Part shown: positions 51,138 to 51,273 of the stretch, piece by piece | Position numbering within the stretch: the stretch's first letter is position 1 | How the letters are laid out: every line of letters starts with the position of its first letter | Sequence record: PV700625 | DNA length: 64,000 nt | From: Escherichia phage MET-P1-301 | Direction: 5' to 3' (one strand) | Program-made: the position numbers and the translations under genes | The notes under the pieces: model-generated | Databases searched by the model: none | The model's input: the letters and a program-made list of their open reading frames with translations, nothing else | What the model was told of the DNA's origin: nothing

Positions 51138-51273
51138 CAGACCGTTGTTTATCATCTTAAGTGCTACCATTACACCAACTCGACATCTGCCGAGTGAAGG
51201 AATCGAACCTTCGCCTTTTCTTTACCGGAGAAATAGATTGTTTAAGTTTTGCTGTAAACGGTCTTCTGTAAAT
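51138..51273. repeat. stem-loop repeat unit A (CCAGACCG ... TTTGCTGTAAACGGTCTTCTGTAAA)
   Basis: One of four copies; arms AGACCGTT/AACGGTCT pair; encloses the permuted tRNA-like module. Confidence 0.7.
51162..51234 (-). ncRNA. circularly permuted tRNA-like module (candidate Y-RNA-like or permuted tRNA)
   Basis: Minus strand 5-prime to 3-prime: UUUCU-CCGGUAA-AGAAA hairpin, AGGC, T-arm GAAGG-UUCGAUU-CCUUC, ACUCGGC-AGAU-GUCGAGU (7-bp acceptor-like stem closed by tetraloop), UG, D-arm GUGU-AAUGGUA-GCAC. Confidence 0.5.

What the first reader, a model, noticed from the sequence alone, without database searches (positions are those of the whole stretch)
51138..51273. Circularly permuted tRNA-like module embedded in the tRNA cluster
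Read 5-prime to 3-prime on the minus strand, the segment has every tRNA module at canonical spacing but in permuted order: anticodon-like hairpin UUUCU-CCGGUAA-AGAAA, 4-nt spacer AGGC, T-arm GAAGG-UUCGAUU-CCUUC, then ACUCGGC-AGAU-GUCGAGU, in which the two acceptor strands pair with each other and are joined by a tetraloop where the tRNA ends would be, then UG and D-arm GUGU-AAUGGUA-GCAC. The whole module sits between two arms of an 8-bp helix (AGACCGUU / AACGGUCU). This is the arrangement expected if the RNA ends lie in a helix that replaces the anticodon-stem junction, which is how tRNA-mimicking Y-RNA-like RNAs and permuted tRNA genes are organised. It is not a canonical tRNA and would be missed by standard tRNA finders.
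Basis: partly seen in the sequence, partly recalled or inferred. Interest (0 to 1): 0.85.

Follow-up and report, generated by a model that had tools for sequence, protein, structure and literature searches.

The report
Phage Y-RNA-like tRNA mimic, Ro60 partner
The segment is a conserved small RNA in a Felix O1-like phage that folds like a tRNA with its ends moved to the anticodon side; it is one of four related RNAs encoded just downstream of a previously unrecognised-by-sequence Ro60-like protein, which makes it the likely RNA partner of a phage Ro60/Y-RNA particle found in hundreds of large phages.

Summary
On the minus strand, 51271-51134 folds into a terminal helix that encloses a hairpin, a canonical T-arm, a closed 7-bp acceptor stem and a canonical D-arm. 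Across three Ounavirinae genera the T- and D-arms are invariant and the acceptor stem covaries (3 of 7 pairs doubly compensated). The 'anticodon' hairpin decays, so this is not a working tRNA. The order V–T–AS–D inside a terminal stem is exactly that of bacterial YrlA Y RNAs.

The module is one of four paralogous units in the window: a 4-bp helix, an AGA|G loop, helix AGACCNN/NNGGUCU, and the motif UACAGCAA. In 65 distant phage loci encoding the protein, the same signature occurs 115 times on the gene strand and 4 times on the other. 70% lie within 1 kb of the gene, and some carry full tRNA-like cores.

The canonical Ro-binding motif GNCGAA is absent and replaced by UACAGCAA. A 2024 preprint noted the Ro60 resemblance of the Bas63 ortholog (gp130, anti-Ppl) and guessed at Y RNAs, but identified none. 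Verdict: a new variant of the Ro60/Y-RNA kind. RNA–protein binding is inferred, not shown.

The parts
51134..51271 (-). Unit D, the reported finding: a Y-RNA-like RNA with a tRNA-like core. P0 UUAC 51271-51268 / GUAA 51137-51134; loop AGA 51267-51265 | G 51138; P1 AGACCGUU 51264-51257 / AACGGUCU 51146-51139; motif UACAGCAA 51256-51249.
51217..51233 (-). V / relic anticodon hairpin UUUCU-CCGGUAA-AGAAA. It is lineage-specific and not conserved.
51196..51212 (-). T-arm GAAGG-UUCGAUU-CCUUC, invariant in all relatives; U54 U55 C56 A58 and G53-C61 are present.
51178..51195 (-). Closed 7-bp acceptor stem (AS) ACUCGGC-AGAU-GUCGAGU. It covaries across genera. Predicted RNase P site is 5' of G51184.
   Evidence: RNase P site inferred from M. 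smegmatis YrlA
51161..51175 (-). D-arm GUGU-AAUGGUA-GCAC (A14, G18 G19, A21), preceded by U8-G9. Invariant except D-loop position 20.
51279..51357 (-). Unit C, a paralogous core-less unit: GAGC-AGA-AGACCAA-AUACAGCAA…UUGGUCU-G-GCUC.
51743..51814 (-). Unit B, core-less, between tRNA-Met and tRNA-Asn: UUAC-AGA-AGACCGU-UUACAGCAA…ACGGUCU-G-GUAA.
51903..51981 (-). Unit A, core-less, between tRNA-Glu and tRNA-Met: UGAC-AGA-AGACCAA-UUACAGCAA…UUGGUCU-G-GUCA.
50993..51135 (-). Element E: a strongly structured RNA (terminal stem of about 24 bp, z = -6.4) abutting unit D. It contains a mini-unit, AGAC-CUUAAGCAA-GUCUG (51035-51017).
52312..53726 (-). Ro60-like protein gene (DUF2828 + DUF7788; PHROG 850; ortholog of Bas63 gp130). 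In this window it is split into two ORFs by a 1-nt deletion in an A-run (about 53166-53170).
52174..52293 (-). Two exact-TTGACA promoter-like sites (52293-52265 and 52203-52174) between the Ro60-like gene and the first tRNA. A third lies upstream of the gene (53795-53766).
   Evidence: same arrangement seen in L038 and L039

Best explanation
Unit D is a YrlA-type Y-RNA-like noncoding RNA of a Felix O1-like phage. It is transcribed with the tRNA cluster and released when the flanking tRNAs are processed.

Its ends pair into a bulged terminal helix: P0, an AGA|G loop, then P1. P1 is followed on the 5' strand by single-stranded UACAGCAA. This module is shared by three core-less paralogues in the window and by more than 100 units in distant phages. 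I propose it is the binding site for the phage's divergent Ro60 ring protein (Bas63 gp130 ortholog) encoded just upstream.

The insert of unit D is a circularly permuted, domesticated tRNA, probably a former tRNA-Thr(GGU). It keeps the T-arm/D-arm elbow and a 7-bp acceptor stem closed by a loop. This presents a tRNA-shaped handle to tRNA-recognising host factors such as RNase P, the CCA-adding enzyme, TruB/TrmA, and possibly PNPase as in RYPER complexes.

The RNP would then modulate RNA processing or decay during infection. The reported anti-Ppl activity of gp130 suggests a role in counter-defence.

Shown here: the RNA structure and its conservation, the Ro60 fold of the protein, and the tight genomic linkage. 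Inferred: RNA–protein binding, RNase P cleavage, and the cellular role.
For: (1) Structure. T- and D-arms are invariant and the acceptor stem covaries across Felixouna-, Susp- and Mooglevirus.

(2) Architecture. The order terminal stem–V–T–AS–D equals YrlA. The 7-bp AS matches M. smegmatis YrlA, which is cut by RNase P and CCA-tailed in vivo.

(4) Linkage in the window. Same strand, 1048 nt from the gene's stop to P1 of unit D, with four units in the first 1.2 kb of the tRNA cluster.

(5) Linkage elsewhere. In 65 loci at 39-46% protein identity there are 115 strict units on the gene strand versus 4 on the opposite strand, with 3.1 expected from shuffles. 53 of 65 loci are positive. 70% of units lie within 1 kb of the gene, a zone that is 10.7% of the sequence. 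Only 15 of 115 lie in long stop-free stretches, which cover 85% of bases.

(6) tRNA-like cores in distant phages. T–AS–D cores found by a motif-blind scanner in L038, L039, L062, L068 and L123 all sit inside such units next to the gene, and none is called a tRNA by ARAGORN.

(7) Helix support. P1 pairing is unit-specific (128/140 paired; 0 of 20,000 permutations reach this) and pair 2 is always G-C. P0 covaries among the four window units.

(8) Independent genetics. Bas63 gp130 is Ro60-like, lies directly upstream of the tRNAs and counters Ppl.
Against: - No transcript, end-mapping or binding data exist for these RNAs.
- The canonical Ro60-binding motif GNCGAAN0-1G / CGAA is absent from the stem. 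The only GGCGAAG is at the V/T junction and is not conserved.
- The Levitt pair is not canonical (A15 with C48 or A48).
- Covariation within Ounavirinae rests on only three stem variants. The outer helix P1 is nearly invariant there, with one G-C to G-U change and one A·C mismatch.
- Part of the unit statistics is ascertainment, because the scanner requires both helix and motif.
- 12 of 65 distant loci have no strict unit within the fetched flanks.
- The Ro60-like gene in this window carries a frameshift. This is probably a sequencing artefact, because the portal gene also appears split.
- Units also co-occur with tRNA clusters, so linkage to tRNA processing rather than to Ro60 is not fully separated.
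Confidence: 0.72

Rival explanations
1. Processing punctuation only. The tRNA-like core and the helix units are cis-acting signals (RNase P, RNase E or RNase III sites, or end-protecting hairpins) that help mature the polycistronic tRNA precursor. They have no relationship to the Ro60-like protein.
For: The units sit in inter-tRNA spacers. A 7-bp acceptor plus T-arm is a classic RNase P determinant. Other spacers of the cluster are also highly structured.
Against: In distant phages 70% of units hug the Ro60-like gene, often with no tRNA between or nearby (for example L043, L064-L080). Some lie directly upstream of its start codon. A sequence motif invariant across phage groups (C-M-G-C-A-A) points to a sequence-specific binder rather than generic processing.
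Confidence: 0.12
2. A tRNA-shaped decoy acting on its own. The closed tRNA mimic titrates a host tRNA-targeting defence nuclease or another tRNA-binding factor, independently of the Ro60-like protein.
For: Phage tRNAs are thought to counter tRNA-targeting defences (cited). The elbow and acceptor stem are the conserved parts.
Against: The anticodon arm, the usual target of such nucleases, is the part that decays. Only about 8% of units carry a T-arm, so the common denominator is the helix and motif, not the tRNA shape.
Confidence: 0.08
3. A functional permuted tRNA-Thr(GGU) gene. The precursor is cut in the acceptor loop and matured, and as a two-piece or ligated molecule it decodes ACC/ACU.
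For: The sequence with the permutation reversed is called tRNA-Thr(GGU) by ARAGORN. tRNAscan-SE calls a 129-nt 'tRNA-Thr-GGT' in some GenBank records. The phage otherwise has only tRNA-Thr(UGU). The Moogle-type loop begins GCCA.
Against: The window has C33 instead of U33. 5 of the 8 distinct Felixounavirus-type variants have a 6-nt loop. The loop differs in ESh22 and the arm is lost in Moogle, HP1 and L019. Acceptor pairs 1-3 and the discriminator change freely (G-C/U·G/C-G; G·U/G·U/C-G; G-C/A-U/A-U), so no synthetase identity is conserved. About 37 nt plus a 12-bp helix are inserted at the 26/27 junction. No BHB endonuclease pathway exists in bacteria (general knowledge).
Confidence: 0.03
4. 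Non-functional debris: the 3' part of one decayed tRNA followed by the 5' part of a tandem copy.
For: Chen et al. warn that dimeric tRNAs mimic the T–AS–D pattern. The 4-nt junction resembles real inter-tRNA spacing in this cluster. A tandem duplication is the likely origin.
Against: Compensatory changes keep the two acceptor strands paired in three genera, while the T and D arms stay invariant. The spacer length is conserved at about 425 nt. The same design recurs independently in distant phages inside P1/motif units.
Confidence: 0.03
5. Protein-coding: the antisense 'hypothetical proteins' annotated over the spacer (for example bas63_0137/0138, Phi87_08; window + strand ORF 51022-51363) are the real genes.
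For: ORFs are annotated in several GenBank records, and there is a 113-codon TTG ORF in the window.
Against: Relatives differ by 1-, 2-, 4- and 9-nt indels inside these ORFs. Substitutions are compensatory for RNA pairing, not codon-patterned. The annotations differ from record to record.
Confidence: 0.01

Closest known systems
YrlA (Y RNA-like A) of Salmonella, Mycobacterium and mycobacteriophages (Chen et al. 2014, PMC4201824)
   Same: A terminal stem formed by the 5' and 3' ends. Inside it, a less-conserved V stem-loop, a near-invariant T stem-loop, a sequence-variable closed acceptor stem (AS) and a near-invariant D stem-loop. Encoded within 4 kb and on the same strand as a Ro60-type protein. 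Accompanied by paralogous RNAs lacking the full tRNA-like domain (as with YrlB). The 7-bp AS matches M. smegmatis YrlA, which RNase P cleaves.
   Different: The conserved stem motif is UACAGCAA next to an AG…C(U/A)G helix, not GNCGAAN0-1G. The protein partner is so divergent that Pfam files it as DUF2828/DUF7788 rather than TROVE. Units are multi-copy and interleaved with genuine tRNA genes. The Levitt 15:48 pair is not kept. The hairpin before the T-arm has anticodon-arm spacing and is a relic anticodon arm.
Thermus phage phiLo phiRo60 with Yrl1/Yrl2 (PMC12135203)
   Same: A phage-encoded Ro60 with two or more phage-encoded Y-like RNAs next to the gene. These are the top Foldseek hits (9KOP, 9L5Y) for the Felixounavirus protein model.
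   Different: phiLo Yrls carry the CGAA motif in a large internal bulge, and no tRNA-like domain is reported for them. phiRo60 is recognisable as a TROVE protein. 14-16% identity to the protein studied here.
Permuted tRNA genes of the red alga Cyanidioschyzon merolae (from memory: Soma et al. 2007)
   Same: The 3' half of the tRNA precedes the 5' half in the gene. The acceptor strands are joined by a short intervening sequence. The flanks pair with each other.
   Different: Those genes mature into functional tRNAs through a circular intermediate made by the BHB splicing endonuclease and ligase. Here the anticodon loop and identity elements are not conserved, and bacteria lack that pathway.
Two-piece (permuted) tmRNA (from memory: Keiler et al. 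2000)
   Same: A circularly permuted gene in which the T-arm/acceptor 3' strand precedes the acceptor 5' strand. It is processed in the linking loop.
   Different: No G3·U70 alanine identity, no tag reading frame, no pseudoknots. ARAGORN and Rfam tmRNA models do not match.
Bas63 gp130 (PhageMaP preprint, PMC11482910)
   Same: Ortholog of the window's protein, at the same position directly upstream of the tRNA cluster. Described there as Ro60-like and as a counter to the Ppl defence system. The authors speculate that Y RNAs hide among the tRNA genes.
   Different: No RNA partner was identified. The candidates found here are not annotated tRNA genes but lie in the unannotated spacers, which are mis-annotated with antisense ORFs.

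Membership tests
YrlA / bacterial Y RNA | Encoded within about 4 kb of a Ro60 (TROVE + vWA) gene on the same strand | tested here: met
YrlA / bacterial Y RNA | Near-invariant T and D stem-loops with tRNA-invariant nucleotides | tested here: met
   GAAGG-UUCGAUU-CCUUC and GUGU-AAUGGNA-GCAC are invariant in 14 variants. U8, A14, G18 G19, A21, U54 U55 C56, A58 and G53-C61 are present.
YrlA / bacterial Y RNA | Sequence-variable closed stem-loop (AS) between T and D at the acceptor position | tested here: met
   7 bp; 3 pairs with double compensatory changes; 99% of cells paired.
YrlA / bacterial Y RNA | Less-conserved V stem-loop upstream of T | tested here: met
   The hairpin at 51233-51217 is present in Felixouna- and Suspvirus and degenerate in Moogle-type phages. 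It is absent from the RNAalifold consensus.
YrlA / bacterial Y RNA | GNCGAAN0-1G (CGAA) motif near the 5' end in the Ro60-binding stem | tested here: not met
   The stem-adjacent conserved motif is (U/A)UACAGCAA. The only GGCGAAG is at the V/T junction and is lost in relatives.
YrlA / bacterial Y RNA | Levitt pair 15:48 maintained (G:C or A:U) | tested here: not met
   A15 faces C48 (window) or A48 (L012, L022, L032, ESh22, Moogle, HP1, L019).
YrlA / bacterial Y RNA | Bound by Ro60/Rsr; modified by TruB/DusA; (some members) cut by RNase P and CCA-tailed | not testable with these tools
   Needs RIP/EMSA, modification mapping and RACE.
YrlA / bacterial Y RNA | Match to a curated covariance model | tested here: not met
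   No Rfam family matches at gathering score or at E<=10, except a partial tRNA hit of 22 bits. Whether Rfam 15 holds a YrlA model was not verified.
Canonical tRNA | Cloverleaf with 5'/3' ends at the acceptor stem; 7-nt anticodon loop with U33 | tested here: not met
   ARAGORN gives no call. Rfam tRNA scores 22 bits, below the gathering score of 29, and is partial. The loop has C33 and is 6 nt in many relatives. It is recognised only after in-silico reversal of the permutation.
Functional permuted tRNA gene | Conserved anticodon and synthetase identity elements; a maturation pathway that rejoins the halves | tested here: not met
   The anticodon arm and acceptor pairs 1-3 are not conserved. 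The pathway is not testable here.
tmRNA (standard or two-piece) | G3·U70, tag ORF, pseudoknots; detection by ARAGORN or Rfam | tested here: not met
   Pairs 3:70 are C-G, C-G and A-U. No tmRNA is called at this site.
Ro60 / TROVE protein (for the partner) | HEAT-repeat ring followed by a vWA domain with MIDAS | tested here: met
Ro60 / TROVE protein (for the partner) | Sequence match to Pfam TROVE | tested here: not met
   Only DUF2828 and DUF7788 match, even at E<=10.

The most novel reading that the evidence does not exclude
The helix–UACAGCAA units are an undescribed, widespread RNA family: the cognate Y RNAs of DUF2828-type Ro60 proteins in hundreds of large phages (at least 592 IMG/VR contigs encode the protein). 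They use a recognition motif different from all known Y RNAs. In a minority of copies they have captured a circularly permuted tRNA as an effector domain. The resulting RNP, not the protein alone, is what counters the Ppl defence system or polices phage tRNA precursors. Unit D would be cleaved by RNase P and CCA-tailed into a two-piece tRNA-shaped molecule.
Probability: 0.5. Interest if true: 0.88.

Novelty: new variant of a known kind. Interest (0 to 1): 0.78.

Why it matters
Ro60/Y-RNA particles are conserved from bacteria to humans, where Ro60 is a major autoantigen. Their RNA-recognition rules and functions are still debated, and bacterial and phage examples are few.

This work gives concrete, testable RNA partners for a very divergent Ro60 clade that sequence databases label only as DUFs. 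The clade is common in large tRNA-rich phages and already has one genetic phenotype (anti-Ppl in Bas63).

It shows a second, independent solution for the Ro-binding module. It documents the domestication of a permuted tRNA into a Y RNA, which supports the idea that YrlA-type RNAs descend from tRNAs.

It also corrects annotation in about 250 GenBank phage genomes, where this spacer is left blank, called a 129-nt 'tRNA-Thr' or covered by antisense ORFs.

Tried and rejected
- Rfam at gathering score and at E<=10 over the spacer and over units A/B gave only partial tRNA or noise hits.
- Single-sequence phmmer of the two split ORFs against PDB gave nothing meaningful. Only the profile and the structure searches revealed Ro60.
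- The inner helix CUUAA/UUAAG proposed by the MFE fold is not conserved: it is broken in L028 and absent in Suspvirus, so it was dropped.
- The GGCGAAG at the V/T junction was considered as the Ro motif and rejected, because it is not conserved and is in the wrong place.
- The loose motif scan (6-bp helix + CMGCAA) produced many hits inside genes and was replaced by the strict signature.
- Literature searches for DUF2828 found only plant and tardigrade papers. The search for Felixounavirus transcriptomes returned nothing relevant. The 2020 Ro60 review could not be opened.
- L041 and L042 showed no convincing unit near the gene.
- L036 14669, L090/L091 13291 and L092 13116 T–AS–D hits look like ordinary adjacent tRNAs and were not counted as cores.
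Full report
**Where the finding sits.** The window is part of a Felix O1-like myovirus (Felixounavirus, Ounavirinae). The region is 97-99% identical to many E. coli and Salmonella phages. ARAGORN finds 26 tRNA genes on the minus strand between 46.6 and 52.1 kb. The finding lies in a 427-nt tRNA-free spacer between tRNA-Asp (51416-51493) and tRNA-Lys (50913-50988).

**Checking the observation.** All quoted motifs are present at the stated coordinates on the minus strand. 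The single-sequence MFE fold reproduces the outer helix and four hairpins. Its energy is only 1.7 sd better than shuffles, so folding energy alone proves nothing. ARAGORN and Rfam do not call the element. The sensitive Rfam scan gives only a partial tRNA hit of 22 bits covering the hairpin and T-arm. In some GenBank records tRNAscan-SE forces a 129-nt 'tRNA-Thr-GGT' over roughly 51189-51317. Others annotate antisense hypothetical ORFs.

**Comparative evidence for the structure.** The module occurs in 252 phage records and 26 IMG/VR contigs, all about 88-kb Ounavirinae. I extracted the Asp–Lys spacer from Suspvirus and Mooglevirus relatives at 74-90% identity. This gave 14 distinct module sequences (alignment A1).
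- The T-arm (GAAGG-UUCGAUU-CCUUC) and D-arm (GUGU-AAUGGNA-GCAC) are invariant.
- The closed acceptor stem exists in three versions: ACUCGGC/GUCGAGU, ACACGUU/GGCGUGU and ACCCUUC/GAAGGGU. Its loops are 4, 2-6 and 8 nt.
- Three of its seven pairs show double compensatory changes, and 99% of its cells are paired.
- Over the whole structure 96% of cells pair, against 44-52% when partners are slid.
- RNAalifold independently predicts the outer helix, T-arm, acceptor stem and D-arm, but not the 'anticodon' hairpin.

That hairpin has C33 in the window and a 6-nt loop in 5 of the 8 distinct Felixounavirus-type variants. Its loop differs in ESh22 and it is degenerate in Moogle, HP1 and L019. One- to nine-nucleotide indels across relatives also exclude the antisense ORFs.

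**What kind of object it is.** Reversing the permutation in silico (5' acceptor strand + D-arm + hairpin + variable loop + T-arm + 3' acceptor strand) yields a sequence ARAGORN calls tRNA-Thr(GGU). This works for the Felixounavirus and Suspvirus versions. The Suspvirus loop CUGGUAA is a canonical anticodon loop. The Moogle version gives an aberrant call.

So the module is a true circular permutation of a tRNA, most simply derived from a tandem tRNA-Thr(GGU) pair. Selection now maintains only the elbow (T and D arms) and the acceptor helix. Acceptor pairs 1-3, the discriminator and the anticodon arm drift. This excludes a conserved aminoacylation or decoding role.

The order terminal stem, V, T, AS, D is exactly the architecture described for YrlA, the tRNA-mimicking Y RNA of Ro60-containing bacteria and mycobacteriophages. 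In that study the M. smegmatis YrlA, the one with a 7-bp AS, is cleaved by RNase P and CCA-tailed in vivo. The same paper warns that dimeric tRNAs can mimic the pattern. The covariation found here addresses that concern.

**The protein partner.** YrlA is defined by linkage to Ro60, so I examined the neighbours. Directly upstream of the tRNA cluster on the same strand, 53726-52312 encodes a DUF2828 + DUF7788 protein. It corresponds to PHROG 850, 'RNA-binding protein'. Relatives annotate it as a single 471-aa 'vWFA', 'RNA-binding' or 'DUF2828' protein.

Pfam TROVE does not match, even at E<=10.
- A profile of 34 homologues finds Ro60 among its four weak hits in the whole PDB: top-ranked 1YVP (E 0.17) and 9NEN (E 0.39), both aligned at the MIDAS segment.
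- An AlphaFold2 model has pLDDT 88.8 and pTM 0.88.
- In Foldseek all 12 significant hits are Ro60 structures, aligned over the full length. They include Thermus phage phiRo60, Xenopus and human Ro60, and D. radiodurans Rsr. E-values run from 4.5e-8 to 7e-7 and TM reaches 0.65.

The protein is therefore a highly divergent Ro60 (HEAT ring + vWA). The distance from its stop codon to P1 of unit D is 1048 nt.

**Four units, not one.** The spacer alignment revealed a direct repeat of the module's flanks. Scanning showed four paralogous units on the minus strand:
- A: 51981-51903
- B: 51814-51743
- C: 51357-51279
- D: 51271-51134, the reported finding

Each unit is built the same way:
- P0 is 4 bp and covaries between units (UGAC/GUCA, UUAC/GUAA, GAGC/GCUC).
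- Then comes a conserved asymmetric loop, AGA opposite G.
- P1 is AGACCNN/NNGGUCU, with AA/UU versus GU/AC between units.
- The motif (U/A)UACAGCAA follows immediately after the 5' strand of P1.

Units A-C carry only short AU-rich inserts. Unit D carries the tRNA-like core.

CAGAAGACC occurs exactly six times in the window, four of them at these units. GGUCUGG is also enriched: 17 matches against 4.4 expected.

Downstream, element E (51135-50993) has a terminal stem of about 24 bp (z = -6.4). That stem covaries with the Suspvirus version. E contains a mini-version of the unit, AGAC-CUUAAGCAA-GUCUG.

A bulged terminal helix next to a conserved single-stranded motif is how Ro60-binding modules of Y RNAs are organised. 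The motif here, however, is not GNCGAA.

**Generality.** A motif-blind scanner for T-arm + closed acceptor + D-arm gave 0 hits in shuffles. It found cores 300-650 nt downstream of the Ro60-like gene in two distant contigs (L038 and L039, 46-51% protein identity). On inspection these cores sit inside units with an AGAAGNN/NNCUUCU-G helix followed by WUACAGCAA, arranged in tandem after a TTGACA promoter-like site. ARAGORN calls none of them.

Yersinia phage P778 has four units, one with a V hairpin UUUCU…AGAAA plus a T-arm. Vibrio phage phi-pp2 has five or more. L040 and L043 each have one next to the gene.

Curated P1 helices from 24 units pair with their own partner at 128 of 140 positions. 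Non-cognate partners give a mean of 3.8 of 7, and 0 of 20,000 permutations reach the observed total. Pair 2 is always G-C and the motif core is U-W-C-M-G-C-A-A. Part of this follows from how the units were found.

For a cleaner test I fetched 80 viral loci encoding relatives of the protein. At least 592 contigs encode it. I applied one strict signature to the 65 distant loci (39-46% identity, 1.18 Mb).
- 115 units lie on the gene strand and 4 on the opposite strand, with 3.1 per strand expected from shuffles.
- 53 of 65 loci are positive.
- 70% of units lie within 1 kb of the gene, a zone that is 10.7% of the sequence. 55 lie in the first 500 nt downstream.
- Only 15 of 115 lie in long stop-free stretches, which cover 85% of the bases. 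This excludes a CAG-CAA codon artefact.
- Three further units adjacent to the gene (L062, L068, L123) enclose complete T–AS–D cores with canonical D-arms. ARAGORN calls none of them.
- About 8% of distinct units carry a T-arm, and the median unit length is about 90 nt.

**Prior knowledge.** Phage Ro60 with Y-like RNAs is known for several phages: mycobacteriophages, CcrColossus, Bacillus phage G (citing Chen 2014) and Thermus phage phiLo. In phiLo, phiRo60, Yrl1/2 and host PNPase form a RYPER-like complex. A jumbo-phage survey mentions ROT/TROVE proteins with a tRNA-like partner.

For Felixounaviruses, the PhageMaP preprint reports that Bas63 gp130 is structurally similar to Ro60, lies directly upstream of the tRNA genes and counters the Ppl defence system. 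It speculates that some annotated tRNAs may be Y RNAs. I confirmed that bas63_0130 is the ortholog. No paper in the searchable library identifies the RNAs. The candidates found here are not annotated tRNAs. They lie in the spacers.

**Mechanism proposed.** Shown here:
- a conserved, covarying tRNA-elbow mimic with a closed acceptor stem;
- a shared helix/motif module in four local and more than 100 distant units;
- a Ro60-fold protein encoded beside them on the same strand;
- exact TTGACA promoter-like sites between the gene and the first tRNA, matching L038 and L039.

Inferred:
- The units are co-transcribed with the tRNAs and released by RNase P and 3'-end processing of their tRNA neighbours.
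- The P0–bulge–P1–UACAGCAA module binds the Ro60-like ring.
- Unit D's tRNA-like domain recruits tRNA-recognising factors. It may itself be cut by RNase P 5' of G51184 and CCA-tailed, as M. smegmatis YrlA is.
- The RNP remodels RNA processing or decay in the infected cell and contributes to the anti-Ppl phenotype.

**Caveats.**
- There are no expression or binding data.
- Only three acceptor-stem variants exist within Ounavirinae.
- P1 is almost invariant there, with one G·U and one A·C.
- The canonical CGAA motif and the Levitt pair are not present.
- Co-occurrence with tRNA clusters is only partly separated from co-occurrence with the gene.
- The window's copy of the gene has a 1-nt deletion in an A-run (A5 versus A6, about 53166-53170). 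The portal protein is also split over two ORFs, so I regard this as probable sequencing error rather than gene loss.

**Verdict.** The functional permuted-tRNA reading is rejected. The element is best filed as a new variant of the Ro60/Y-RNA kind: YrlA-like in architecture and linkage, but with a different recognition motif, a DUF-labelled Ro60 partner, multi-copy organisation inside a tRNA cluster, and a wide, previously unrecognised distribution in large phages.

Noticed in passing
window 53166-53170 (-), within gene 52312-53726: The Ro60-like gene is split into ORFs of 244 and 227 aa by a 1-nt deletion in an A-run (A5 here, A6 in UAB_Phi87 and Bas63). It may be a sequencing error or a real inactivation.
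   Followed up: partly
window 43083-43937 and 44114-44557 (-); 45008-46180 (-): The portal protein (Portal_Mu) is spread over two separate ORFs. The large terminase ORF (390 aa) has only the N-terminal domain, whereas relatives have single ORFs of 486 and 533 aa. This suggests further indel errors in this assembly.
   Followed up: no
window 50993-51135 (-): Element E is a 143-nt RNA with a terminal stem of about 24 bp (MFE -48.3, z = -6.4). The stem covaries between Felixounavirus and Suspvirus while the interior diverges. It contains the hairpin AGAC-CUUAAGCAA-GUCUG, which resembles a minimal unit.
   Followed up: partly
window 51358-51415 (-): Right after tRNA-Asp there are two conserved hairpins: GAGAGGGCUAUUUAGCCCCUC, and CUCCCUUAAAGG…CCUUUAAAGGAG. 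Neither is followed by a U-run. Function unknown.
   Followed up: no
window 49645-49719 (-): An unannotated tRNA-like element in the Arg–Ser spacer has an acceptor stem AUGGGACG/CGUCCCAU, a T-arm GGGGUUCAACUCCUC and a 3' GCCA. It gives only a weak tRNA-Sec-model match (23 bits, E 0.07) and is not called by ARAGORN.
   Followed up: partly
window 49941-50176 (-): Weak sub-threshold Rfam matches to tmRNA (15.7 bits) and permuted tmRNA (20.3 bits) fall in the highly structured Ile–Arg spacer. They are probably noise. The spacers 49281-49535 and 49626-49863 also fold very stably.
   Followed up: no
L037 9966-10007; L060 9966-10007; L061 9965-10007; L066 9951-9986: In Vibrio KVP40-like and other phages, a minimal unit (helix + UUACAGCAA, 36-43 nt) lies immediately upstream of, or overlaps, the start codon of the Ro60-like gene. 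It could be an autoregulatory binding site.
   Followed up: no
L001 579-707 (MZ726792.1 27251-27379); L044 2722-2996; L035 3967-4224: Public annotations of this spacer are inconsistent. Some records have a 129-nt 'tRNA-Thr-GGT' from tRNAscan-SE, others have antisense hypothetical proteins (bas63_0137/0138, Phi87_08), and others have nothing.
   Followed up: yes
L007/L008/L019 (Moogle-type) acceptor loop: In Moogle-type phages the acceptor loop reads GCCAAACA: a discriminator G plus an encoded CCA, followed by a 4-nt leader. This looks like a tRNA 3' end fused to the next 5' leader.
   Followed up: no
L039 12504-12596: A distant phage (46% protein identity) also has a helix–motif unit in its tRNA-Asp/tRNA-Lys spacer, the same relative position as units C and D in the window.
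   Followed up: no
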